From the NCBI RefSeq assembly GCF_057098645.1, contig NZ_CM169472.1: 64,000 nucleotides of DNA; one strand, 5' to 3'. Position numbers and translations under genes: made by a program. A model generated the notes under the pieces. It ran no database searches, was not told the DNA's origin, and worked only from the letters and a program-made list of their open reading frames with translations. This document shows positions 12,853-57,268 of the stretch, one piece after another (position 1 is the first letter of the stretch; every line of letters starts with the position of its first letter).

Positions 12853-14091
12853 ATGGCGCTGTCTGATGCGTGGTTGCGTTCAGTCGTTGGAAAGGAACGT
12901 GATAAGGTTTTGGTTAAATCCGATCGTGATGGTCTGTCTGTCAGAGTATCACCGAAAGGTCGCGTAGTGTTCCAATATCGTTATCAATGGGCAGGGAAAG
13001 GTGAGCGCCTTGATATCGGAACTTACCCGGCAACTGGATTAAAAGAGGCCAGAGAAGAAGTTATCCGTCTCCGTGGTGAACTCGAGTCAAACCGCAATCC
13101 ACGATTAGTCAAGCAGGCTGAAAAACGAAAAGCTACTGAAGCTATGACGGTAGAGTCTGTGATCCGTGCCTGGTATGAAGCATATTGTGTAAAAAATAAA
13201 AAAGGTTCTGAACAGATACTCCGCTCGTTTGAGCTGCACCTGTTCTCTAAAATCGGGAATATCCCTCACGATGCAGCTACATTGCATGATTGGTTAGAAG
13301 TCCTGGAGCCTCTTAGCACTAAGACTCCAGCAATAGCAGACCGATTGCTAATTAACGCAAAGCAGGCCCATGTCTGGGCGTATAAGAGAAAGCTCATTGA
13401 AACTCGCCCGCTGTCGGATATCACGGGTAAAGATATGGATATCCGTAAAGGTCAGAAGAAACGGTTTCTGACACATGATGAAATTAAAATCCTTTATGCT
13501 GCGATCGATGGTTCTCGAATGGTTCCCAAATACCGGGCCTTCATTAAACTATTGCTGCATTTCGGCTGTCGTAGTTCAGAGCTGATTACTGCCAGGGTGG
13601 ATGATTTTGATTTCATTAATAAGGTATGGACTGTACCGCCAGAACGACATAAGACAGGTGATATAACAGGCGAACCGCTAAAGCGCCCCATTATTGAACC
13701 GGTTGAAGAGCTTATAAAATACGTTATCTCTATGAACAACGGTTCCGATATGCTTTTTACCAAGGAAGGAAGCAAGGAGCCAGTTGGTCGGACATCATTG
13801 CAGTCGCTGCCTTACAATTTAATGCAGTACGCATGGCGGCGTTTGGGGTATCAATTTCCTCATTGGTCTCTTCATGATTTGAGACGAACAGCACGAACAA
13901 ACTTTTCTGATCTTACTGCGCCTCATATTGCTGAAATAATGCTCGGTCATAAACTGCCAGGGGTATGGCAAGTTTATGATAAGAGCGATTATCTAGAAGA
14001 ACAGCGTAAAGCCTATCAGGCATGGTGGGATAGGGTTGATTCGATTCTTACTTACACTAATTTAGGTTCCAACAGACAGCCTATTGAATAA
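12853..14091 (+). CDS. int: Phage tyrosine integrase (P4-type, N-terminal arm-binding DUF4102-like domain)
   Basis: 412 aa; catalytic signature HDLRRTARTN ... LGHK ... VYDKSDY; adjacent to attL. Confidence 0.9.
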   Translation: MALSDAWLRSVVGKERDKVLVKSDRDGLSVRVSPKGRVVFQYRYQWAGKGERLDIGTYPATGLKEAREEVIRLRGELESNRNPRLVKQAEKRKATEAMTVESVIRAWYEAYCVKNKKGSEQILRSFELHLFSKIGNIPHDAATLHDWLEVLEPLSTKTPAIADRLLINAKQAHVWAYKRKLIETRPLSDITGKDMDIRKGQKKRFLTHDEIKILYAAIDGSRMVPKYRAFIKLLLHFGCRSSELITARVDDFDFINKVWTVPPERHKTGDITGEPLKRPIIEPVEELIKYVISMNNGSDMLFTKEGSKEPVGRTSLQSLPYNLMQYAWRRLGYQFPHWSLHDLRRTARTNFSDLTAPHIAEIMLGHKLPGVWQVYDKSDYLEEQRKAYQAWWDRVDSILTYTNLGSNRQPIE

Positions 14092-14243: not shown

Positions 14244-15851
14244 TTATGGCTGAGACTCTGGTTTAGCAATCTCGTTTATAAATTTCTTAGCTACAACAGT
14301 CTCATACTTTCTATAATCATCAAGATATTGAACATCTATATGATTTTCGTAGCGAGCATTAAATTTATTTGCAGCCCCTGTTTTATCATCTTTACGTTCA
14401 TCCGTTGGTCTGAAAAATTTATGGTAGCGGCGGGGTGATACCCCCTCAAAATCACAAAATATTACTTTGGAAGATTCTTCGTTCTTTGTTATTGCATCAT
14501 TATGCAGATCAAGAGCAAGACTTTTATCAAATGGCTCTATATATACTACTTTTTTTATTCCAGCTGCGACAATATGCCTTGCACAGTTGTGGCAGGGATA
14601 GGTTGTCGTAAAAAGAATTTTATCTTTAGTATCGCCGTTTTGTTTTCTAGCCATTGATGTAATGACGTCCATTTCAGCATGAATTGATCTGGAGTACTCC
14701 ATTACACTTGATATTTTGCTGTCTTTGTAAATGCCTTCTGCAATATTATCTAATTTGTTTAGAAGTCGTGTTATATTAATATCGGCAACAGTTTGTCCTG
14801 CGGAAATACCTAATACAGTTCTTACTTCGGTTGATAATATGCTTTTTATACGGTCTTTAATTTTTAGCTTGTTTGCATCATTATAACACTTACCACTTTT
14901 GTGAACGCATCGATGATCGTTATCAAAATCATCACTGCTATACAACCCGCCACCAGCTTTAGGTACGTCGTTCTTACCCACGGCAAGCAAATTCCCTTCA
15001 TCATCAAACAGTGCAGCCCCTACTTGACGTGATAAACAAGCTGATTGTAATGATGTTGAAAAGGCAGCATACATACCTTTCTCGTTAAAAGTTGGTGTTA
15101 AACCATTTTTGCCATGAATAAGACCGAAAAACCGATCAATCTTCTTCTTTAATTCACTTTTTTGGCTGAAGTTATTTTTAATAAAAAAATCTGAATCAAG
15201 AATGGTTTCCCCGGTTCTTTGTCCATACGGATCAGAGGATTTATTATCAATATTGATAATTAAATGAAGGTCGTTCTTTGTCGATTCGTCATCAATGAGA
15301 TTCTGAATTCGGTAATCTAAATCGCGCAAAACTCCTAACAAATAGAAATTATGCTGATATATAACTCTGAATAACTCTATTTCTTCCGGCCTTTTGAATT
15401 GATCAATGATGAAGACAGTACCTTTATATTCATCATTATTATAATCATTATTATAATCAATATTATTTTTCTCTGCTGCGATTGCTGCAATAGCAGCTTC
15501 TGCAAGCAACTCATTTTTTTTGTAATGTTTACGAAGTTTATTGGCAATATCCTGGAGTTTTAAATGTCTATTAGCTTGTGTGCTTTCGGATACCTTCAGT
15601 GCTGCTGGCTCAAAATATAATGGGTTTTCCATAAGCGCACTTATGCGGATGTGTACAACATTATACCCCCATTCTTTGGATATCTCTTCGATAATTTTGT
15701 TTATCGTTCTCATGCCACATCCAACATATCCACACAATCCAAGATAAATATCTTTTGATTGTCGTGAATTCACAATCTCAAGTGATGATGCCGATGTTGA
15801 GCCTTTTTTTTCATTCAGCTTTTGTGGAGTTTTTTTTGCTGCTTCAGCCAT
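14244..15851 (-). CDS. AvcD-like / dCTP-deaminase-family defense protein: N-terminal degenerate P-loop NTPase (kinase-like) fused to a C-terminal dCMP/cytidine-deaminase (CDA-fold) domain
   Basis: 535 aa; degenerate Walker A LGLCGYVGCGMRT (aa 38-49); deaminase zinc motifs HAEMDVI (aa 391) and PCHNCARH (aa 419-426); AT-rich cargo between int and xis. Confidence 0.7.
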   Translation of the reverse strand: MAEAAKKTPQKLNEKKGSTSASSLEIVNSRQSKDIYLGLCGYVGCGMRTINKIIEEISKEWGYNVVHIRISALMENPLYFEPAALKVSESTQANRHLKLQDIANKLRKHYKKNELLAEAAIAAIAAEKNNIDYNNDYNNDEYKGTVFIIDQFKRPEEIELFRVIYQHNFYLLGVLRDLDYRIQNLIDDESTKNDLHLIINIDNKSSDPYGQRTGETILDSDFFIKNNFSQKSELKKKIDRFFGLIHGKNGLTPTFNEKGMYAAFSTSLQSACLSRQVGAALFDDEGNLLAVGKNDVPKAGGGLYSSDDFDNDHRCVHKSGKCYNDANKLKIKDRIKSILSTEVRTVLGISAGQTVADINITRLLNKLDNIAEGIYKDSKISSVMEYSRSIHAEMDVITSMARKQNGDTKDKILFTTTYPCHNCARHIVAAGIKKVVYIEPFDKSLALDLHNDAITKNEESSKVIFCDFEGVSPRRYHKFFRPTDERKDDKTGAANKFNARYENHIDVQYLDDYRKYETVVAKKFINEIAKPESQP

Positions 15852-21702: not shown

Positions 21703-22535
21703 ACAGTTTAACGGCAAATAACCGTTTGTCGCAACAGCTGGTGGTCAGCGTCGCTGAACACCTGTTGTTACGGCATGAATGCAGATTACCAAATCACCTG
21801 GCTGTAAGTAACCACAGAGAACTTTACCTGACTGTGGGGGGCGAGTTGTGCAGGAACTTAACCGCTGGTTTCGTGACGGAAGAGGGCTTTATGTCCATGT
21901 TATTCGTTGGGAGCCAGAAACACAGCGCGTTATCTATCTTCGCAAAGACTACCCGCATGAGTGCTTTAGTCCTTTGTGGAAATTCAGGCGTGATTTTGTT
22001 GAGTGTGAAGGACCACCAGCACATTGATTCTGCCATTCCGGGACGTTACACTGTTCAGGCACCTTATAAAGCGGGTGCCGGGATTGGCGTCCTGGAAATG
22101 TTATCGGCGATATATGACGCGCCAGCGTCTTTTTTATCGTCTGCGTCTGTGCACACCCAAATTATGGTGGGCTGGACGGGGGCACCGAAAGGTGCGCCGG
22201 TTTCCGATAACGCCGGTTACGCCAACCCCGTTCAGTTCACCACCAGCGAAATTGGCGTTTCCGGTGGTGAAGGTAATTCACTGTTATCGGAGGCTGCCAT
22301 CATGGCTACTGTCCCAGCCCTCACTCGTCTGAATGATGAAGACTTACATAAACTCAGTTATGTAACAACTGCACTACGTGCTCTGCGCAAGGTAACTCTT
22401 TCGGATCCGCAGGCGCATCAAGTTCTGGTAGAAACCCTTCTTAACTTGCAGGCTGAACGTATTCGTCTGGCGGATAAGGCTAATTTTCATATTCACCGTC
22501 TCCTGAATATCAGCGGAGGGCATCGTCATGCTTAA
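21699..22535 (+). CDS. Hypothetical phage protein (replication-module position)
   Basis: 278-aa ORF translationally coupled between the CII-like and O-like genes; no motif recognised. Confidence 0.5.
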   Translation: MNSLTANNRLSQQLVVSVAEHLLLRHECRLPNHLAVSNHRELYLTVGGELCRNLTAGFVTEEGFMSMLFVGSQKHSALSIFAKTTRMSALVLCGNSGVILLSVKDHQHIDSAIPGRYTVQAPYKAGAGIGVLEMLSAIYDAPASFLSSASVHTQIMVGWTGAPKGAPVSDNAGYANPVQFTTSEIGVSGGEGNSLLSEAAIMATVPALTRLNDEDLHKLSYVTTALRALRKVTLSDPQAHQVLVETLLNLQAERIRLADKANFHIHRLLNISGGHRHA

Positions 22536-26459: not shown

Positions 26460-27212
26460 ATGAACCTTGAAGCCTTACCAAAATATTACTCCCCAAAATC
26501 TCCAAAACTGAGTGATGACGCACCGGCGACAGGCTCTGGTGGTTTAACAATTACGGATGTAATGGCTGCGCAGGGGATGGTGCAGTCGAAAGCACCGCTT
26601 GGGTTTGCCTTATTCCTGGCAAAAGTTGGCGTTCAGGATCCTCAGTTTGCGATTGAAGGTCTGCTCAATTACGCGATGGCACTGGATAACCCGACATTGA
26701 ACAAATTGAGTGAAGAAATCCGGTTACAGATCATCCCTTACCTTGTGAATTTTGCCTTTGCTGATTATTCCAGGTCTGCGGCAAGTAAGGCTCGCTGTGA
26801 GCATTGTGATGGTACTGGATTTCATAATGTATTGCGCGAGGTGGTGAAACACTCCAGAAGCGGGGAATCTGTTATCAAGGAAGAGTGGGTGAAGGAACTA
26901 TGTCAGCATTGTCATGGTAAGGGAGAAGTCAGCACAGCGTGCAGAGGGTGTAAGGGTAAAGGTATTGTCCTGGATGAAAAAAGAACCCGGCTTCATGGTA
27001 CGCCTGTTTATAAGATTTGTGGGCGTTGCAATGGTAACCGGTTTAGCCGTTTACCAACCACACTGGCGCGGCATCATGTCCAGAAGCTGGTACCTGCCCT
27101 GACGGATTATCAGTGGTACAAAGGATATGCAGATATCATTGATAAACTGGTTACAAAGTGCTGGCAGGAAGAAGCATATGCAGAGACACAATTGAGAAAA
27201 GTGACAAGATAA
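26460..27212 (+). CDS. Late-gene antiterminator Q (Qin QuuQ/YdfT-like, 250 aa, four CxxCxGxG zinc-finger repeats)
   Basis: CEHCDGTG, CQHCHGKG, CRGCKGKG, CGRCNGNR repeats; immediately upstream of a promoter-terminator pair and the lysis genes. Confidence 0.75.
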   Translation: MNLEALPKYYSPKSPKLSDDAPATGSGGLTITDVMAAQGMVQSKAPLGFALFLAKVGVQDPQFAIEGLLNYAMALDNPTLNKLSEEIRLQIIPYLVNFAFADYSRSAASKARCEHCDGTGFHNVLREVVKHSRSGESVIKEEWVKELCQHCHGKGEVSTACRGCKGKGIVLDEKRTRLHGTPVYKICGRCNGNRFSRLPTTLARHHVQKLVPALTDYQWYKGYADIIDKLVTKCWQEEAYAETQLRKVTR

Positions 27213-27249
27213 ATGATTTTCGCCGAAGATGGCGACATGATGCTTGCGT

Positions 27250-27290
27250 TTTTCAAAAAATATGGATAAGATTTTCCCAACGATGGGCTT
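27250..27290 (+). promoter_or_regulatory. Candidate late promoter PR' / Q-utilisation region
   Basis: TTGCGT-17 nt-TAAGAT about 40 nt upstream of the tR' hairpin; position typical for PR'. Confidence 0.35.
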
Positions 27291-27320
27291 TGTATGTCTA
27301 CCGTTGATAAGATTTAAGAA

Positions 27321-27345
27321 CCCGCCGCTGAGCGGGTTTTTTTGT
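27321..27345 (+). terminator. tR'-like intrinsic terminator downstream of Q
   Basis: aacccgccgctgagcgggttttttt hairpin plus T-tract. Confidence 0.75.
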
Positions 27346-27492: not shown

Positions 27493-27918
27493 ATGAGTGT
27501 AATGAAAAAGGTATTAATAGCAGCGATAGGTTTTTGTTTAGTTGGTTGTGCAGGTATGAAATTACCTGAGTATTCGCAAGTTAAAGCAAGTCCGTATTAT
27601 ACAGATTGCCGTGCGTTTGCCATGGATGTTTATAAAAATGATGGATACAGCAAAATTGCGAAAACCACTATCCTTAGCATGGATGATGTGAAGGCTAGAT
27701 ATATTGTTACAGGGTGTGTAGTTGCTATGGGGAAAAACACTGTAGAGGAAATTAAAGCTGATCTCTCTGCTAAAGGGAGTTCTTTTGGGCTTATCAGTGG
27801 TGCTTGTTCTAGTGCTGCATGTCGGGTTGATGTAGAGCAGCAAATGAACGCTTATATACTTGGTAGTTATTATGCTACAAATAAAAAATTCCCGGATAAA
27901 ATGAAAGCAGAGTTTTAA
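27493..27918 (+). CDS. Lipoprotein moron (signal peptide with lipobox LVGC, Cys-rich mature part)
   Basis: MKKVLIAAIGFCLVGCAG... (alternative start at 27502); AT-rich; bracketed by near-identical terminators. Confidence 0.65.
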   Translation: MSVMKKVLIAAIGFCLVGCAGMKLPEYSQVKASPYYTDCRAFAMDVYKNDGYSKIAKTTILSMDDVKARYIVTGCVVAMGKNTVEEIKADLSAKGSSFGLISGACSSAACRVDVEQQMNAYILGSYYATNKKFPDKMKAEF

Positions 27919-27996
27919 GCAAACCTTGTTTTCGATTATATGCCGAAGATAAATGTTAGTAACGGCATAATAAGTAAATATATAGCTGTGATAGCA

Positions 27997-28020
27997 ACCC
28001 GCCACTGAGCGGGTTTTTTG
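27997..28020 (+). terminator. Second copy of the tR'-like terminator after the lipoprotein gene
   Basis: aacccgccactgagcgggtttttt, nearly identical to 27321..27345. Confidence 0.7.
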
Positions 28021-28117
28021 TACCTGTAAACTTGGTGCAGTACAGTAAACACGCTGGTGGTCGTGAATACTGACTTTTTATCTTGCTGGCTTTTTAGACA
28101 AGAGTTATTGGTATGTC

Positions 28118-28345
28118 ATGTTAACCAGAAGGGAAAAAGACATGCTAAAACAGCAAGATATGACAGAAACCGCCGCCGCAGTCCTTCATTTCTTACCTGC
28201 TGACAAGTGGGTAACGCCACGCATGATGACGAGAACTACCGGAGTAAGCGAAGCCCAGTGCCAGTTAATACTGACTCAGTTAGTTCTGGCGGGTCTGGCG
28301 AAGGATAACGGCGGGTACGGGAATAAATTCAGACGCTGCCAGTAA
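28118..28345 (+). CDS. Hypothetical small phage protein
   Basis: 75-aa ORF between the moron and the methyltransferase. Confidence 0.4.
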   Translation: MLTRREKDMLKQQDMTETAAAVLHFLPADKWVTPRMMTRTTGVSEAQCQLILTQLVLAGLAKDNGGYGNKFRRCQ

Positions 28346-28495
28346 TGGCGGTTTCCTGCTGTGAAAATGGGCGGCTGGTGGGTGTTGGTAGCACCTGCCA
28401 GCCATTCGCTCATGCTTACTGGTCACAAGCGAACCACGGCCCACTGCTTTAGCGCAAAAGCAGAGTGAGCCTACCAGAGTTACGCTTACTGATCC

Positions 28496-29548
28496 ATGAA
28501 AAATACTGTAAAAATAAACAGTGTTGATTTAATCAACGCTGATTGCCTGCATTTTATTCAGTCCCTGCCTGATAACTCCATTGATCTGATTGTTACCGAT
28601 CCGCCGTACTTCAAAGTGAAGCCCAACGGCTGGGACAATCAGTGGAAAGGGGACGAAGATTACCTGAAGTGGCTGGACCACTGTCTGGCCCAGTTCTGGC
28701 GGGTACTGAAACCAGCCGGAAGCCTTTACCTGTTCTGTGGGCATCGCCTGGCATCTGATATTGAGATCATGATGCGTGAACGTTTCAACGTGCTTAACCA
28801 TATCATCTGGGCGAAGCCGTCCGGACGTTGGAATGGGTGTAATAAAGAAAGTCTGCGCGCATATTTTCCTGCCACAGAGCGCGTTCTGTTTGCTGAACAT
28901 TACCAGGGGCCATATCGCGGCAAAAGTGACGGCTATGCGGCAAAAGAAAGGGAACTCAAACAGCACATAATGGCACCGCTGATATCGTATTTCAGGGATG
29001 CTCGTGCCGAACTGGGTATAACGGCAAAACAAATTGCTGAAGCCACAGGTAAGAAAAATATGGTTTCCCACTGGTTTGGTGCCAGTCAGTGGCAGTTGCC
29101 GAATGAGGCTGACTATCGGAAGTTACAGGCACTGTTTTCCCGTATAGCGGCAGAGAAGTTTCAGGAACAACAACTGGAACAACCACACCACCAGCTGGTG
29201 GCATCTTATGATTCACTGAATCGCAAATATTCTGAATTGCTGGATGAGTTTAAATCTCTCCGGCGCTATTTCTCCGTATCAGTCTCCGTGCCTTATACCG
29301 ATGTCTGGATGCATAAACCCGTTCAGTTCTACCCGGGTAAACATCCGTGTGAGAAACCGGCGGATATGCTCAGGCAAATAATCAATGCCAGTAGTCGACC
29401 TGGTGATCTGGTTGCTGATTTTTTTATGGGATCCGGTTCCACAATAAAAGCAGCAATGGCGCTGGGGCGTCGGGCCTTAGGTGTTGAGCTTGAGTCAGAG
29501 CGGTTTAACCAGACAGTGAAAGAGATAAACGAGCTGGTGGGGAAATAA
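28496..29548 (+). CDS. Orphan DNA methyltransferase (N6-adenine/N4-cytosine class, DPPY motif)
   Basis: LIVTDPPYF catalytic motif and a C-terminal SAM-binding region ([13 protein letters not shown]); no adjacent restriction gene. Confidence 0.8.
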
Positions 29549-29554
29549 TCTGGT

Positions 29555-29577
29555 GGCCACGTCAGGTGGCCTTTTTA
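29555..29577 (+). terminator. Hairpin plus T-tract after the methyltransferase gene
   Basis: ggccacgtcaggtggcc followed by ttttta. Confidence 0.5.
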
Positions 29578-29615
29578 TTTCCATTACACAGCACCCGCAT
29601 CTGCGAGGTGGGGTT

Positions 29616-29831
29616 ATGAAATCCATGGATAAGTTAACAACGGGTGTCGCCTATGGCACCTCAGCAGGTAGTGCCGGTTACTGGTTTTTACAGCTGCTCG
29701 ATAAAGTCACGCCCTCACAGTGGGCAGCAATAGGTGTGCTGGGTAGCCTGGTATTTGGCCTGCTGACGTACCTGACAAACCTTTATTTCAAGATTAAAGA
29801 AGATAAGCGCAAGGCTGCGAGAGGTGAATAA
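29616..29831 (+). CDS. Pinholin, phage 21 S21-like, with dual start (MKSMDK... / MDK...)
   Basis: [71 protein letters not shown] closely matches remembered S21. Confidence 0.85.
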
Positions 29832-30328
29832 TGCCTCCATCATTACGAAAAGCAGTTGCTGCTGCTATTGGTGGCGGAGCAATTGCTATAGCATCAGTGT
29901 TAATCACTGGCCCAAGTGGTGACGATGGCCTGGAAGGTGTCAGCTACATACCATACAAAGATATCGTTGGCGTATGGACTGTATGTCACGGACACACCGG
30001 AAAAGACATCATGCTCGGTAAAACGTATACCGAAGCAGAATGCAAAGCCCTCCTGAATAAAGACCTTGCCACGGTTGCCAGACAAATTAACCCGTACATC
30101 AAAGTCGATATACCGGAAACAACGCGCGGCGCTCTTTACTCGTTCGTCTACAACGTGGGTGCTGGCAATTTCAGAACATCGACGCTTCTTCGCAAAATAA
30201 ACCAGGGCGATATCAAAGGCGCATGTGACCAGCTACGTCGCTGGATATACGCTGGCGGTAAGCAATGGAAAGGCCTGATGACTCGTCGTGAGATTGAGCG
30301 TGAAGTCTGTTTGTGGGGGCAACAATGA
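29831..30328 (+). CDS. SAR endolysin (phage 21 R21-like lysozyme with N-terminal signal-anchor-release helix)
   Basis: N-terminal Gly/Ala-rich SAR helix ([21 protein letters not shown]) followed by a lysozyme domain; start overlaps the holin stop. Confidence 0.85.
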
Positions 30329-30792
30329 GCAGAGTAACCGCGATTATCTCCGCTCTGGTTATCTGCATCATCGTCTGCCTGTCGTGGGCGGTCAATCATT
30401 ACCGTGATAACGCCATCGCCTACAAAGAACAGCGAGATAAAAAAGTCAGTGAGCTGAAGCAGGCGACCGCCACCATTACTGACATGCAGCAGCGCCAGCG
30501 TTCTGCTGATGCACTCGATGCTAAATACACGAAGGAGTTAGCTGATGCGAAAGCTGAAAATGATGCTCTTCGGCGCAAGCTTGATAATGGTGGTCGGGTG
30601 TTCGTCAAAGGAAAATGCCCTGTGCCATCCTCAGCCGAAACCTCCAGCGCCTCCGGCATGGGCAATGATGCCACCGTCGAACTCTCTCCAGTTGCTGGAC
30701 GAAACGTTCTCGGTATCCGGGACGGAATTATCCGCGACCAAACAGCACTGAGAACGCTTCAGGAATACATCAGGACGCAATGCCTTCGATGA
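30325..30792 (+). CDS. Spanin inner-membrane subunit Rz
   Basis: N-terminal TM helix then a coiled-coil periplasmic region; directly after the endolysin. Confidence 0.8.
30545..30751 (+). CDS. Spanin outer-membrane lipoprotein Rz1, embedded in Rz in the +1 frame
   Basis: [21 protein letters not shown] lipobox followed by a proline-rich segment; entirely inside the Rz ORF. Confidence 0.8.
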
Positions 30793-44471: not shown

Positions 44472-45170
44472 ATGCAGGATATTCCACAGGAAACACATCA
44501 TGAGACGACACGCCTCACTCAGTCAGCCCAGGTGGTGCTCTGGGAAATCGATCTGACAGAGGTCGGTGGTGAACGTTATTTTTTCTGTAATGAGCAGAAC
44601 GAAAAAGGTGAGCCGGTTACCTGGCAGGGGCGGCAGTATCAGGCATACCCCATTCAGGGGACGGGATTTGAACTGAATGGCAAGGGCAGTGCTGCCCGTC
44701 CGACACTGACGGTTTCTAACCTGCACGGCATGGTCACCGGGATGGCGGAAGACCTGCAGAGTCTGGTCGGCGGAACGGTGGTCAGGCGTAAGGTTTACGC
44801 CCGTTTTCTGGATGCGGTGAACTTCGTCAACGGAAACAGCGACGCCGATCCGGAGCAGGAGGTGATCAGCCGCTGGCGCATCGAGCAGTGCAGCGAACTG
44901 AGTGCGGTCAGTGCCTCCTTTGTGTTGTCCACACCGACGGAAACGGATGGTGCCGTTTTTCCGGGGCGCATCATGCTGGCCAACACCTGCACCTGGACCT
45001 ATCGCAGTGATGAGTGCGGTTATCACGGTCCGGCTGTCGCGGATGAATATGATCAGCCGACGTCCGATATCACGAAGGATAAATGCAGCAAATGCCTGAG
45101 TGGCTGTAAGTTCCGCAATAATGTCGGCAACTTTGGCGGCTTCCTTTCCATTAACAAACTTTCGCAGTAA
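44472..45170 (+). CDS. Minor tail protein L (lambda gpL-like)
   Basis: 232 aa with a C-terminal Cys cluster (CSKCLSGCKF). Confidence 0.85.
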   Translation: MQDIPQETHHETTRLTQSAQVVLWEIDLTEVGGERYFFCNEQNEKGEPVTWQGRQYQAYPIQGTGFELNGKGSAARPTLTVSNLHGMVTGMAEDLQSLVGGTVVRRKVYARFLDAVNFVNGNSDADPEQEVISRWRIEQCSELSAVSASFVLSTPTETDGAVFPGRIMLANTCTWTYRSDECGYHGPAVADEYDQPTSDITKDKCSKCLSGCKFRNNVGNFGGFLSINKLSQ

Positions 45171-53755: not shown

Positions 53756-54336
53756 TGGCATTCAGAATGAGTGAACAACCACGGACCATAAAAATTTATA
53801 ATCTGCTGGCCGGAACTAATGAATTTATTGGTGAAGGTGACGCATATATTCCGCCTCATACAGGTCTGCCTGTAAACAGTACCTATATTGCACCGCCAGA
53901 TATTCCGGCTGGTTTCGTGGCTGTTTTCAACAGTGATGAGTCATCGTGGCATCTCGTTGAAGATCATCGGGGTAAAACGGTTTATGACGTGGCTTCCGGC
54001 GACGCGTTATTTATTTCTGAACTCGGTCCGTTACCGGAAAATGTTACCTGGTTATCGCCGGAAGGGGAGTTTCAGAAGTGGAACGGCACAGCCTGGTTGA
54101 AGGATACGGAAGCAGAAAAACTGTTCCGGATCCGGGAGGCGGAAGAAACAAAAAACAACCTGATGCAGGTAGCCAGTGAGCATATTGCGCCGCTTCAGGA
54201 TGCTGCAGATCTGGAAATTGCAACGGAGGAAGAAATCTCGTTGCTGGAAGCATGGAAAAAGTATCGGGTATTGCTGAACCGTGTTGATACATCAACTGCA
54301 CCTGATATTGAGTGGCCAGCAGCACCTGTAGGATAA
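53755..54336 (+). CDS. tfa: Tail fiber assembly protein (Tfa)
   Basis: 193 aa following and coupled to stf; C-terminal ...[23 protein letters not shown]... Confidence 0.85.
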
Positions 54337-55546: not shown

Positions 55547-55662
55547 TGTACAAATGTTCTTTGGCTACAAATACACCTACTGATCATGTTCTGCTATGCT
55601 CTGATACCTCCAAAATGTACAATCAGCGGCATGAATTTTTCTTTGTACATATGATTGTACAT
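55547..55662. promoter_or_regulatory. TGTACA motif cluster on the attR arm / phage-supplied prfC promoter region
   Basis: TGTACA at 55547, 55616, 55644 and 55657; mirrors the cluster at attL. Confidence 0.4.
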
Positions 55663-55681
55663 AATCAAAGAGACAACAATT

Positions 55682-57268
55682 ATGACAAGCCTTTTGGCCG
55701 CAGAGGTAGCGAAAAGAAGAACCTTTGCAATTATTTCTCACCCGGACGCCGGTAAGACTACCATCACCGAGAAGGTGCTGCTGTTCGGACAGGCCATTCA
55801 GACTGCCGGTACAGTAAAAGGCCGTGGTTCCAACCAGCACGCTAAGTCGGACTGGATGGAGATGGAAAAGCAGCGTGGGATCTCCATTACTACGTCTGTG
55901 ATGCAGTTTCCGTATCACGATTGCCTGGTTAACCTGCTCGACACCCCGGGGCACGAAGACTTCTCGGAAGATACCTACCGTACCCTGACGGCGGTGGACT
56001 GCTGCCTGATGGTTATCGACGCCGCAAAAGGTGTTGAAGATCGTACCCGTAAGCTGATGGAAGTTACCCGTCTGCGCGACACGCCGATCCTCACCTTTAT
56101 GAACAAACTTGACCGTGATATCCGCGACCCGATGGAATTGCTCGATGAAGTTGAGAACGAGCTGAAAATTGGCTGCGCACCGATCACCTGGCCAATTGGC
56201 TGCGGCAAGCTGTTTAAAGGCGTTTACCACCTTTATAAAGATGAAACCTATCTCTATCAGAGCGGTAAAGGGCACACCATTCAGGAAGTCCGCATTGTTA
56301 AAGGGCTGAATAACCCGGATCTCGATGCTGCGGTTGGTGAAGATCTGGCACAGCAGCTGCGTGACGAACTGGAACTGGTTAAAGGCGCGTCTAACGAGTT
56401 CGACAAAGAGCTGTTCCTTGCGGGCGAAATCACTCCGGTATTCTTCGGTACTGCGCTGGGTAACTTCGGCGTTGATCATATGCTGGATGGCCTGGTGGAG
56501 TGGGCGCCTGCGCCGATGCCGCGTCAGACCGATACCCGTACCGTAGAAGCGAGCGAAGATAAATTTACCGGCTTCGTATTTAAAATTCAGGCCAACATGG
56601 ACCCGAAACACCGCGACCGCGTGGCGTTTATGCGTGTGGTGTCCGGTAAATATGAAAAAGGCATGAAACTGCGCCAGGTGCGCACTGCGAAAGATGTGGT
56701 GATCTCCGACGCGCTGACCTTTATGGCGGGTGACCGTTCGCACGTTGAAGAAGCGTATCCGGGCGATATCCTCGGCCTGCACAACCACGGCACCATTCAG
56801 ATCGGCGACACCTTTACCCAGGGTGAGATGATGAAGTTCACCGGTATTCCGAACTTCGCACCAGAACTGTTCCGTCGTATCCGCCTGAAAGATCCGCTGA
56901 AGCAAAAACAGCTGCTCAAAGGGCTGGTACAGCTTTCCGAAGAGGGCGCGGTGCAGGTGTTCCGTCCAATCTCCAACAACGATCTGATCGTTGGTGCAGT
57001 TGGTGTGCTGCAGTTTGATGTGGTGGTAGCGCGCCTGAAGAGCGAATACAACGTTGAAGCAGTGTATGAGTCAGTCAACGTTGCCACTGCCCGCTGGGTA
57101 GAATGTGCAGACGCGAAGAAATTCGAAGAGTTCAAGCGTAAGAACGAAAGCCAACTGGCGCTTGATGGCGGCGATAACCTCGCTTACATCGCTACCAGCA
57201 TGGTCAACCTGCGCCTGGCACAGGAACGTTATCCGGACGTTCAGTTCCACCAGACCCGCGAGCATTAA
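55682..57268 (+). CDS. prfC: Peptide chain release factor 3 with a phage-supplied replacement N-terminus
   Basis: Translational GTPase with G1 motif [12 protein letters not shown]; N-terminus [16 protein letters not shown]... replaces native [17 protein letters not shown]... Confidence 0.9.
55730..55743. other. attR core (attatttctcaccc)
   Basis: Exact copy of 12609..12622; phage sequence on the left, native prfC on the right. Confidence 0.7.

What the first reader, a model, noticed from the sequence alone, without database searches (positions are those of the whole stretch)
28496..29548. Orphan DNA methyltransferase just upstream of the lysis cassette
A DPPY-motif methyltransferase with no partner restriction enzyme; it probably protects phage DNA from host restriction systems or acts in regulation. 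Its target specificity is unknown.
Basis: partly seen in the sequence, partly recalled or inferred. Interest (0 to 1): 0.3.

Follow-up and report, generated by a model that had tools for sequence, protein, structure and literature searches.

The report
Prophage EcoGII-type adenine methyltransferase gene
The gene is real and is a close relative of M.EcoGII, a well-studied prophage enzyme that methylates adenine in any sequence, so it is ordinary; the one new thing is a conserved folded RNA leader just upstream that may control it.

Summary
The ORF at 28496-29548 (+, 350 aa) is a real beta-class N6-adenine DNA methyltransferase. DPPY lies at residues 35-38 and FMGSG at 310-314; Pfam PF01555 E=2e-42.

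"Specificity unknown" is out of date. The protein is about 81% identical over its full length to M.EcoGII, the characterised non-specific adenine methyltransferase. It is about 90% identical to Anc291, a reconstructed ancestor that is also non-specific. It is 99.4% identical to phage mEp460 gp53. Homologous DNA occurs in 1264 of 5426 complete E. coli genomes.

The gene lies in the Q-dependent late operon, downstream of a lambda-like pR'/tR'.

Most likely mechanism (inferred): late expression after induction, blanket m6A on progeny DNA, and generic protection from restriction.

One possibly new item: a 115-nt structured element (28364-28479) precedes the gene. It has covariation support, was found in 78 of 78 related viral loci with enough upstream sequence, has no Rfam match, and survives as a degenerate remnant in phage lambda. 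It may gate translation of this toxic enzyme.

The parts
26460..27212 (+). Antiterminator Q gene (250 aa)
   Evidence: Pfam PF03589 Antiterm E=1e-52. RefSeq homologue is annotated 'antitermination protein'.
27244..27272 (+). pR'-like late promoter (TTGCGT, 17 nt, TAAGAT), followed by CAACGATGGG at 27279-27288, which is identical to lambda's initial transcribed region
   Evidence: Alignment with lambda's post-Q region and the sequence itself. The function is inferred by analogy with lambda pR'.
27319..27345 (+). tR'-like intrinsic terminator (ACCCGC..GCGGGT plus a T-run)
   Evidence: Sequence. It was picked up as terminator-type leader matches in the Rfam E-value scan.
27493..27918 (+). Lipoprotein-like moron ORF (141 aa, function unknown), followed by a second copy of the terminator at 27996-28015
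   Evidence: PHROG 4748 E=2e-90, no Pfam hit. Terminator. The ORF is absent from related prophages.
28142..28345 (+). Small conserved ORF (67 aa), a minimal winged-helix protein of unknown function
   Evidence: PHROG 331 E=1e-25. It lies ~150-200 nt upstream of the methyltransferase in almost all related loci. Sub-threshold TrmB, DprA_WH and HTH_24 hits occur in 5-6 of 8 homologues. AlphaFold2 pLDDT 86.8; the best TM-score, 0.82, is to Zalpha-type winged helices, with weak E-values.
28364..28479 (+). Conserved structured leader element: a three-way junction (P1 UGGGC/GCCCA, P2, P3), a hairpin P4, and an invariant GAGCCUAYCA tail. It ends 16 nt before the methyltransferase ATG.
   Evidence: Nucleotide conservation across seven genera. 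Alignments and RNAalifold. Covariation counts with controls. Covariance model R1 gives one hit in the window, E=2.5e-33, and hits in 78 of 80 viral loci at a fixed position. No Rfam match.
28496..29548 (+). Beta-class N6-adenine DNA methyltransferase of the M.EcoGII clade (350 aa): the finding
29555..29579 (+). Intrinsic-terminator-like hairpin (GGCCAC..GTGGCC) plus T-run, between the methyltransferase and the holin
   Evidence: Phage Ayreon annotates a terminator at the same place.
29616..29831 (+). Phage-21-type holin (71 aa)
   Evidence: Pfam PF04971 E=4e-35. RefSeq homologue 'EssD' is 216 nt. The ATG at 29616 was read.
29831..30328 (+). Endolysin (lysozyme family)
   Evidence: Pfam PF00959 E=2e-45.
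30313..30792 (+). Rz spanin, with an embedded Rz1-like lipoprotein ORF at 30545-30751
   Evidence: Pfam PF03245 E=9e-29. The embedded ORF appears.

Best explanation
The ORF encodes an orphan beta-class N6-adenine DNA methyltransferase of the M.EcoGII clade. It is carried by a lambdoid prophage integrated between yjjG and prfC.

By homology it most likely methylates adenine with little or no sequence specificity. This is inferred, not assayed.

The gene sits near the start of the Q-dependent late operon. The order is pR'/tR', a lipoprotein moron with its own terminator, a small winged-helix ORF, a structured leader, the methyltransferase, another terminator, and then holin, endolysin and Rz/Rz1.

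In the lysogen, transcripts from pR' should stop at tR' and the later terminators, so this toxic enzyme is not made. After induction, Q-modified RNA polymerase reads through. The enzyme then appears late and methylates replicating phage DNA just before packaging and lysis. Progeny DNA would enter the next host pre-protected against m6A-sensitive Type I, II and III restriction, whatever the recognition site. The cost is sensitivity to m6A-dependent nucleases.

Shown here: family, motifs, fold, gene order, terminators and the lambda-like pR' sequence. Inferred: non-specificity, late timing and the anti-restriction benefit.
For: Family and architecture. Pfam PF01555 E=2e-42. The motif order DPPY, then TRD, then FxGxG is seen. 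The AlphaFold2 model has pLDDT 93.3 and shows a Rossmann core plus a helical insert at ~147-255. This matches the published description of M.EcoGII (catalytic residues 1-134 and 260-349; four-helix-bundle TRD 160-237; PMC11551740). The top Foldseek matches are beta-class methyltransferases: M.BceJIV, CcrM, M.RsrI and M.MboIIA.

Closeness to characterised enzymes. Identity is 81% to M.EcoGII over 349 aa with 2 gaps. The TRD segment is 77% identical to M.EcoGII and 86% to Anc291. Overall identity is 89.9% to Anc291, 87.8% to Anc289 and 71.4% to Anc284/SUPREM. In a neighbour-joining tree the protein falls in the same subclade as M.EcoGII, below the Anc291/Anc289 nodes. M.EcoGII is non-specific on DNA (PMC5778455). 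Anc291 and SUPREM show no motif on RNA, and all the ancestors methylate DNA (PMC11551740).

Late-operon position. Q lies at 26460-27212. The post-Q sequence aligns with lambda pR', including an identical CAACGATGGG. Terminator-like hairpins lie at ~27320-27345, 27996-28015 and 29555-29571.

Conserved gene order. The order Q..., methyltransferase, holin/endolysin (or tRNAs plus stx, then lysis genes) holds in mEp460, Stx2a_WGPS2, a Serratia phage and metagenomic relatives. In the N15-like phage and Vibrio phage MAR, where no Q is annotated, the methyltransferase still sits directly upstream of the lysis genes.

Silence and toxicity of homologues. PMC5778455, PMC4659465, PMC6602927 and PMC12707154.

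Orphan status..
Against: No member of this exact subtype (mEp460, cdtI, SfV type) is reported as assayed in the papers I could search. 19% of residues, and 23% of TRD residues, differ from M.EcoGII, and what makes M.EcoGII non-specific is not understood structurally.

The M.EcoGII and ancestor sequences came from a machine-read supplementary table with visible errors. The identities are therefore good to about 1-2 points, and the tree is rough.

RefSeq names some copies 'site-specific DNA-methyltransferase'. That is a generic label, not data.

I found no paper showing that virion DNA of such phages is hypermethylated, or that the enzyme improves plating on restricting hosts.

Late, Q-dependent expression is inferred from gene order and from analogy with lambda and Stx phages, not from transcript data for this prophage.
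Confidence: 0.7

Rival explanations
1. It is a sequence-specific orphan methyltransferase with an as-yet unknown recognition motif. It would protect phage DNA only against particular restriction systems.
For: The TRD differs from M.EcoGII at ~23% of positions. The nearest site-specific relative named in the literature, M.PflMI, belongs to the same wider family (PMC11551740). This subtype has not itself been assayed.
Against: The protein is bracketed by M.EcoGII (extant) and by Anc291, Anc289 and Anc284 (reconstructed), all broadly active without a motif. The TRD has no insertion, deletion or domain swap relative to M.EcoGII.
Confidence: 0.12
2. The enzyme is non-specific, but its main role is not anti-restriction. 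Alternatives are methylating host or phage RNA, changing recombination or repair of phage DNA, marking DNA for packaging, or shutting the host down late in infection.
For: M.EcoGII also methylates RNA and DNA:RNA hybrids (PMC5778455). EcoGII-hypermethylated cells show increased RecA-dependent recombination (PMC12403123). The gene sits immediately before the lysis genes in very different phage types, which fits any late function.
Against: No direct evidence for any of these roles in a phage context was found. Blanket m6A blocks many restriction enzymes, which gives a simple selective benefit that explains the wide spread (1264 of 5426 genomes). Residue 179 is Q, as in M.EcoGII, not the E linked to higher RNA activity in SUPREM.
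Confidence: 0.13
3. It acts as an epigenetic regulator in the lysogen, like Dam or CcrM. This is the 'acts in regulation' part of the reader's interpretation.
For: Orphan methyltransferases such as Dam and CcrM do regulate genes. NCBIfam gives weak sub-threshold similarity to YhdJ and CcrM models.
Against: The NCBIfam scores are far below the cut-offs: 110 against 292, and 69 against 830. The gene lies behind pR'/tR' and further terminators. [quoted passage not shown]
Confidence: 0.03
4. It is an inactive relic.
For: Fragments and truncated copies exist. The 90% cluster contains partial proteins. 933W-type Stx2 phages keep only the last ~34 codons.
Against: This copy is full length, with every nearly invariant family residue present. 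The exact protein occurs on 437 contigs. It is 99.4% identical to the copy in the sequenced phage mEp460.
Confidence: 0.02

Closest known systems
M.EcoGII and M.EcoGI (E. coli O104:H4 C227-11 prophages; GenBank EGT69837.1 for M.EcoGII)
   Same: Beta-class N6-adenine methyltransferases of 349-350 aa with the same motif order and a helical TRD. Both are prophage-borne and orphan. Identity is ~81% over the full length with 2 gaps. The same leader element and small upstream ORF accompany M.EcoGII-like genes, for example in Stx2a_WGPS2 and phage 1720a-02.
   Different: ~19% of residues differ, and ~23% in the TRD. This subtype (mEp460, cdtI, SfV type) has not been assayed. Here the holin follows directly, whereas many STEC prophages have tRNAs, stx or other morons between the methyltransferase and the lysis genes.
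Anc291, Anc289 and Anc284 (SUPREM), reconstructed ancestors of the M.EcoGII clade (PMC11551740)
   Same: ~90%, 88% and 71% identity to the window protein. All methylate DNA and RNA. No motif was found for Anc291 or SUPREM on RNA.
   Different: They are synthetic proteins. Their non-specificity was mapped on RNA rather than DNA. The sequences used here are machine-read copies with errors.
M.EcoMV (EC958_1545, prophage Phi4 of E. coli ST131)
   Same: A prophage orphan of the same family, 99% identical to M.EcoGI. RT-PCR showed it is not expressed in the lysogen, and it has no assignable motif (PMC4659465).
   Different: It is closer to M.EcoGI than to the window protein. Its sequence was not compared directly here.
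Phage Mu Mom with its Com translational activator
   Same: Works alike, by analogy only: a toxic phage DNA-modification function that is silent in lysogens and made late. In Mu, a small upstream-encoded protein and an mRNA structure at the start site gate translation. Here a small upstream ORF and a structured leader that can pair with the start region precede the gene. A review draws the Mom/M.EcoGII parallel (PMC12707154).
   Different: There is no sequence or fold relationship. Mom is not a methyltransferase of this class. The small ORF here is a winged helix, whereas Com is a zinc-finger protein (my own knowledge). The regulatory link here is untested.
Solved beta-class methyltransferases M.BceJIV (8URK, 9C3U), CcrM (6PBD), M.RsrI and M.MboIIA
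   Same: The same catalytic core. phmmer E-values run from 3e-24 to 1e-16. Foldseek probability is 1.0.
   Different: They are site-specific enzymes with only ~18-21% identity. Only the core superposes (TM-score normalised to the query ~0.5). Their TRDs are unrelated.
Dam-type phage methyltransferases (alpha class, GATC), for example the 'phage N-6-adenine-methyltransferase' in the related prophage of strain WWCOL-256
   Same: A phage-borne orphan adenine methyltransferase.
   Different: A different class and motif order, with a specific GATC target, encoded in the early-right operon. RefSeq annotates no counterpart in the closest relative, CFSAN061770 (97% coverage); the window's own ORFs there were not scanned.

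Membership tests
Beta-class N6/N4 amino-methyltransferases (Pfam PF01555 N6_N4_Mtase) | Profile match above the curated gathering score | tested here: met
   145.9 bits against a cut-off of 26.7, E=2.2e-42, covering residues 29-341.
Beta-class N6/N4 amino-methyltransferases (Pfam PF01555 N6_N4_Mtase) | Motif order: catalytic motif IV (D/S-P-P-Y/F) N-terminal, TRD central, SAM motif I (FxGxG) C-terminal | tested here: met
   DPPY at 35-38 and FMGSG at 310-314, with a helical insert between them.
Beta-class N6/N4 amino-methyltransferases (Pfam PF01555 N6_N4_Mtase) | Rossmann-type methyltransferase fold resembling solved beta-class enzymes | tested here: met
   AlphaFold2 pLDDT 93.3. Foldseek top hits are M.BceJIV, CcrM, RsrI and MboIIA at probability 1.0.
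Beta-class N6/N4 amino-methyltransferases (Pfam PF01555 N6_N4_Mtase) | Functional dimer | not testable with these tools
   Reported for M.EcoGII by size exclusion (PMC11551740). Not modelled here.
M.EcoGII clade of non-specific adenine methyltransferases | High full-length sequence identity and the same length and domain layout as M.EcoGII | tested here: met
   282 of 349 residues identical (81%) with 2 gaps. Per-domain identity is 70-90%. The sequence is a machine-read copy, so allow 1-2 points either way.
M.EcoGII clade of non-specific adenine methyltransferases | Phylogenetic position among descendants of the experimentally non-specific ancestral nodes | tested here: inconclusive
   The neighbour-joining tree places it with M.EcoGII, phiP27 and Stx2c copies below Anc291/Anc289, and it is 89.9% identical to Anc291. 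However, the tree is a distance tree built on OCR-damaged sequences, and it has one aberrant long branch.
M.EcoGII clade of non-specific adenine methyltransferases | Methylation of adenine in any sequence context, on DNA and also on RNA | not testable with these tools
   Needs expression plus SMRT or nanopore sequencing, or LC-MS.
M.EcoGII clade of non-specific adenine methyltransferases | Prophage-borne, orphan, silent in the lysogen and toxic when expressed | tested here: inconclusive
   Prophage location and orphan status are met. Silence is only inferred, from the position behind pR'/tR' and terminators. Toxicity was not tested.
Type II restriction-modification system (methyltransferase with cognate endonuclease) | A restriction endonuclease gene adjacent to, or in the same element as, the methyltransferase | tested here: not met
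   The neighbours are a winged-helix ORF and a holin. No REase is annotated in near-identical prophages. PADLOC gave no REase model for the neighbouring ORFs tested.
YhdJ (NF008572) and CcrM (NF050803) equivalogs | NCBIfam score above the curated cut-off | tested here: not met
   110.2 against 292, and 69 against 830. Only the N- and C-terminal core segments match.
Any Rfam 15 RNA family (for the upstream leader element) | Covariance-model match at the gathering score, or at E<=5 | tested here: not met
   No match covers 28346-28495 at the gathering threshold or at E<=5. ARAGORN finds no tRNA there.

The most novel reading that the evidence does not exclude
The 115-nt element at 28364-28479 may be an undescribed cis-regulatory RNA that gates translation of EcoGII-family methyltransferases.

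In one fold it forms a three-way junction (P1, P2, P3) plus hairpin P4, which leaves the start site free. In the alternative fold, the 3' half of P3 pairs with the 25 nt that include the start codon and hides it.

Some factor would tip the balance so that this toxic, non-specific enzyme is made only briefly and late. Candidates are the small winged-helix protein encoded just upstream, the methyltransferase itself, a metabolite such as SAM, or simply co-transcriptional folding kinetics.

A decayed copy in phage lambda, which has no methyltransferase, would then be a fossil of a lost module.
Probability: 0.35. Interest if true: 0.55.

Novelty: already known. Interest (0 to 1): 0.3.

Why it matters
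For the gene itself there is little new. The exact protein is already in public databases. It is 99.4% identical to a sequenced phage's annotated methylase. Its family prototype, M.EcoGII, is a commercial enzyme with published biochemistry.

The practical value of this check is corrective. Annotators and methylome studies should expect 'non-specific, silent until induction' rather than 'unknown motif'. A lysogen-versus-cured methylome comparison is the wrong experiment. Induced cultures, virion DNA or heterologous expression are needed instead.

Homologous DNA occurs in about a quarter of complete E. coli genomes. In some Stx2 phages it lies immediately upstream of the tRNA and stx genes. Blanket adenine methylation of progeny DNA may therefore influence how easily toxin-converting and other lambdoid phages cross restriction barriers.

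If the upstream structured leader is a real regulator, it would explain how cells tolerate carrying such a dangerous gene. It could also offer a compact control element for expressing EcoGII-type enzymes.

Tried and rejected
1. Obtaining M.EcoGII's sequence directly. The supplement of Murray et al. is not held. I used the machine-read Table S1 of PMC11551740. It has visible errors such as NHHIW for NHIIW and GRRRA for GRRA, so the identities are approximate.

2. Specificity from structure. Foldseek against the PDB matched only the catalytic core (TM-score normalised to the query ~0.5), and no solved structure resembles the TRD. No motif prediction was possible.

3. Reaching distant loci. The search for related loci failed with the 80-sequence alignment. 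With 12 sequences it returned only relatives at 77-100% identity. Distant contexts came from the look-up of encoding contigs instead. Three of the five representatives at or below ~45% identity with enough flanking DNA sit in other, tightly packed contexts, and the covariance model, run on L106 and L108-L111, found no leader.

4. Identity of the leader. It is not a tRNA and not an Rfam family, including AgvB, AsxR and riboswitch families. The convergent anti-sRNA idea from Tree et al. 2014 does not fit its position or strand. Exact sequence strings are absent from the paper library.

5. A pseudoknot between the invariant GAGCC tail and P2 or P3 was considered. It is not supported by consistent changes across genera, judged by reading the alignment.

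6. Lambda orf-64 as a homologue of the small ORF: no similarity.

7. Literature on hypermethylated virion DNA, or on a plating advantage conferred by this family: none found.

8. The small ORF as an m6A-sensing or RNA-binding winged helix. The fold is a generic minimal winged helix, closest in TM-score to Zalpha domains, but all E-values are 0.0066 or weaker. No functional call is justified.
Full report
OBSERVATION

It carries TDPPYF (D35-Y38) near the N-terminus and DFFMGSGST (F310-G314) near the C-terminus. That is the motif order of beta-class amino-methyltransferases.

The profile matches are overwhelming:
- Pfam N6_N4_Mtase, 145.9 bits against a cut-off of 26.7.
- PHROG 67, E=3e-103.
- PADLOC MTase_II, E=1e-152.

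Downstream lie a terminator-like hairpin at 29555-29571 and then the lysis genes. These are a phage-21-type holin (29616-29831), a lysozyme (29831-30328), and Rz (30313-30792) with an embedded Rz1-like ORF.

No restriction endonuclease is annotated in two near-identical RefSeq prophages, and none was detected among the neighbouring ORFs.

SETTING

The window is E. coli chromosome. It contains three tRNA-Leu(CAG) genes, rsmC, holD, rimI and yjjG, with a prfC-sized ORF (55655-57268, not checked) beyond the right end of the prophage. A lambdoid prophage is inserted after yjjG, running from the integrase gene at 12853 to tail-fibre genes near 54300.

The exact window is not in the collection of complete E. 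coli genomes, but mosaic relatives cover 91-97% of the 25 kb tested at 97-99% identity.

The methyltransferase DNA is 100% identical to a gene in strain WWCOL-256. Related DNA occurs in 1264 of 5426 complete genomes. The protein is 99.4% identical to mEp460 gp53. At DNA level the gene is 98.6% identical to the copy in phage cdtI and 96.4% identical to SfV orf48. The exact protein is in NCBI, seen on 437 contigs, within a 4060-member cluster at 90% identity.

WHAT IT IS

The closest characterised enzyme is M.EcoGII, from a prophage of E. coli O104:H4. Murray et al. showed that it methylates adenine in any DNA context, and also in RNA. They found it silent in its native lysogen and harmful when expressed. 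[quoted passage not shown]

I took the M.EcoGII sequence from Table S1 of the SUPREM paper. It is a machine-read copy with a few visible errors. The window protein is 282/349 (81%) identical to it, with two single-residue gaps.

By segment, identity to M.EcoGII is 90% in the N-terminal catalytic part, 77% in the published TRD segment (160-237) and 75% in the C-terminal part.

The protein is closer still to Anc291 (89.9%) and Anc289 (87.8%), the reconstructed ancestors of the M.EcoGII clade. It is 71% identical to Anc284/SUPREM. All of these proteins methylate DNA and RNA, and nanopore analysis found no motif for M.EcoGII, Anc291 or SUPREM (PMC11551740).

In a rough neighbour-joining tree, the window protein groups with M.EcoGII, phiP27 and Stx2c-phage copies below the Anc291/Anc289 nodes.

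An AlphaFold2 model (pLDDT 93.3) shows a Rossmann core interrupted by a helical insert at ~147-255. This matches the published description of a four-helix-bundle TRD. Foldseek finds only the catalytic cores of site-specific beta-class enzymes: M.BceJIV, CcrM, RsrI and MboIIA. No structure resembles the TRD.

Membership of the beta class is therefore established. Membership of the M.EcoGII clade is established by sequence. The defining biochemical property, lack of specificity, is a strong inference and not a result.

HOW IT IS PROBABLY USED

The gene lies in the late operon.
- Q ends at 27212.
- The next 130 nt align with lambda's post-Q region. They contain a -35/-10 pair and the identical string CAACGATGGG, which begins lambda's pR' transcript. 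The role of that string in lambda comes from my own knowledge of pR'.
- A strong terminator hairpin follows at ~27320-27345.
- A lipoprotein-like moron (27493-27918), absent from the nearest relatives, carries a second copy of that terminator at 27996-28015.
- Then come a 67-aa ORF, a 150-nt gap, the methyltransferase, a third terminator, and the holin.

Without Q, transcription should stop before the methyltransferase. With Q, it should read through. This fits three published observations: M.EcoGI and M.EcoGII leave no trace in the lysogen's methylome; M.EcoMV is not transcribed in ST131 strain EC958; and homologues gave no signal in O111 STEC. [quoted passage not shown]

The arrangement is old. 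The methyltransferase sits directly upstream of holin/endolysin genes in several very different phages:
- a Serratia phage (63% identity);
- an N15-like E. coli phage (56%);
- Vibrio phage MAR of the VHML group (50%);
- metagenomic relatives at 53-64%.

In STEC prophages, tRNAs, stx or other morons are wedged between it and the lysis genes. In 933W-type Stx2 phages only its last ~34 codons survive, between Q and the tRNAs.

The most economical reading is a late-made enzyme that blankets progeny DNA with m6A just before packaging. This would give protection independent of any restriction site. That last step is inference. I found no paper demonstrating it for this family.

Comparing the methylome of a lysogen with that of a cured strain is expected to show nothing even if the enzyme is fully active. 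'No lysogen-specific motif' therefore cannot refute the interpretation. The informative experiments use induced cells, virion DNA or heterologous expression.

THE UPSTREAM LEADER, FOUND IN PASSING AND PARTLY FOLLOWED UP

Conservation. The 150 nt between the small ORF and the methyltransferase are better conserved than the small ORF beside them. They are 75-100% identical in phages of Escherichia, Klebsiella, Citrobacter, Morganella, Providencia, Hafnia and Serratia. They are recognisable in the N15-like and Vibrio phages. The element stays with the methyltransferase in phages that lack the small ORF, such as Flotzy, LLS and Eeyore.

Structure. The consensus has four helices:
- P1, an invariant 5-bp helix (UGGGC/GCCCA);
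- P2, a 10-12-bp hairpin enclosed by P1;
- P3, an 8-bp hairpin also enclosed by P1;
- P4, a separate hairpin, followed by an invariant GAGCCUAYCA tail.

Covariation. On 22 distinct sequences, 83% of cells are paired, against 25-47% when the partners are slid by 1-3 columns. Fifteen pairs change on both sides, against 7.5±1.5 in shuffles, with 0 of 500 shuffles reaching any observed measure. One junction-closing pair occurs as C-G, A-U and U-A. Two caveats apply: the structure was derived from these same sequences, and many of them are related. Frequent G-U pairs favour the + (mRNA) strand.

Distribution. A covariance model built on this structure finds:
- one site in the 64-kb window (28364-28479, E=2.5e-33);
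- one site in each of 78 of 80 related viral loci, always ending 16 nt before the ATG; the other two loci lack upstream sequence;
- a weak full-length match in phage lambda at 45022-45133, between orf-64 and S (23.9 bits, E about 3e-5 to 3e-4). P2, the GGUCAC loop of P3 and CUAUCAG survive there, but P1 and P4 are broken. Lambda has no methyltransferase, so this looks like a remnant.

The element matches no Rfam 15 family, is not a tRNA, and its sequence is absent from the searchable papers.

Possible switch. Single-sequence folds give either the three-way junction or an alternative fold in which the 3' half of P3 pairs with the ~25 nt that include the start codon. Duplex calculations give -11 to -18.5 kcal/mol for that alternative in 14 of 16 divergent representatives. 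The z-scores against shuffled start regions are -1.3 to -3.9 in 13 of the 16, and the pairing partners differ in sequence between genera.

This is the anatomy of a translational switch, but the evidence is suggestive only, and the trigger is unknown.

The small ORF. The 67-aa ORF upstream (PHROG 331) is a minimal winged helix. AlphaFold2 gives pLDDT 86.8. There are weak TrmB, DprA_WH and HTH_24 matches. The best TM-score, 0.82, is to Zalpha domains, with E-values of 0.0066 or weaker. Whether it has anything to do with the leader or the enzyme is open.

VERDICT

The finding as stated is real but ordinary: an already catalogued member of the M.EcoGII family. Its likely property (no sequence specificity) and its behaviour (silent until induction) are in the literature.

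Its claim of unknown specificity is outdated and its proposed test is uninformative.

The conserved structured leader is the only element here that may be new. It deserves a proper covariance search of whole collections and a reporter experiment.

Noticed in passing
window 28364-28479 (+): A 115-nt conserved structured element lies directly upstream of the methyltransferase: a three-way junction, a hairpin, and an invariant GAGCCUAYCA tail. It has covariation support and occurs at a fixed distance from the ATG in 78 of 78 related viral loci with enough upstream sequence. It has no Rfam match. An alternative pairing of its P3 3' half with the start-codon region suggests a translational switch.
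   Followed up: partly
L010 1223-1334 (phage lambda NC_001416 positions 45022-45133): Lambda has no methyltransferase but carries a degenerate copy of the same element between orf-64 and S. P2, the GGUCAC loop and CUAUCAG are kept, while P1 and P4 are broken (23.9 bits). This looks like a fossil of a lost small-ORF/leader/methyltransferase module.
   Followed up: partly
window 28142-28345 (+): A 67-aa ORF (PHROG 331) is conserved ~150-200 nt upstream of the methyltransferase in almost all related phages, at only 45-57% identity between subtypes. It is predicted to be a minimal winged helix. The closest TM-scores are to Zalpha Z-DNA/Z-RNA-binding domains, but all matches are statistically weak. 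Its function is unknown.
   Followed up: partly
L005 3962-4114 (Stx2-converting phage 86); L003 6001-8683 (Stx2a_WGPS2): In some Stx2 phages (WGPS2; phiP27 similar by tblastn) the full methyltransferase sits immediately upstream of ileZ-argN-argO and stx2AB. In 933W-type Stx2a phages only its last ~34 codons remain, between Q and the tRNAs. The toxin module therefore lies at, and has in places eroded, the methyltransferase locus.
   Followed up: partly
window 27278-27345 and 27951-28022 (+): The tR'-type terminator (AACCCGCC..GAGCGGGTTTTTT) is present twice, flanking the lipoprotein-like moron at 27493-27918. That moron is absent from the closest RefSeq prophages. This is consistent with a moron insertion at tR' that duplicated, or brought along, the terminator.
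   Followed up: no
window 14244-15851 (-): An anti-phage dCTP deaminase defence gene lies next to the prophage integrase (PADLOC dCTPase E=2e-164). Sister prophages carry an AIPR-family gene at this spot, so it appears to be a defence-gene swap site.
   Followed up: no
window 22059-22135 and 22160-22247 (+); 54098-54296 (+): Rfam matches above gathering score were found for isrK and for a C4 antisense RNA, side by side in the prophage early region near the ash-family gene. There is also an IS009 RNA match at the tail-fibre end of the prophage.
   Followed up: no
window 28475-28498 (+): The methyltransferase start has no GGAGG-type Shine-Dalgarno sequence in the E. coli-type leaders. Instead, a conserved UGAUC(C/U) lies directly before the AUG. 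By my recollection of the 16S sequence, this is complementary to 16S rRNA just 5' of the anti-SD. It also creates a GATC (Dam) site at the start codon.
   Followed up: no
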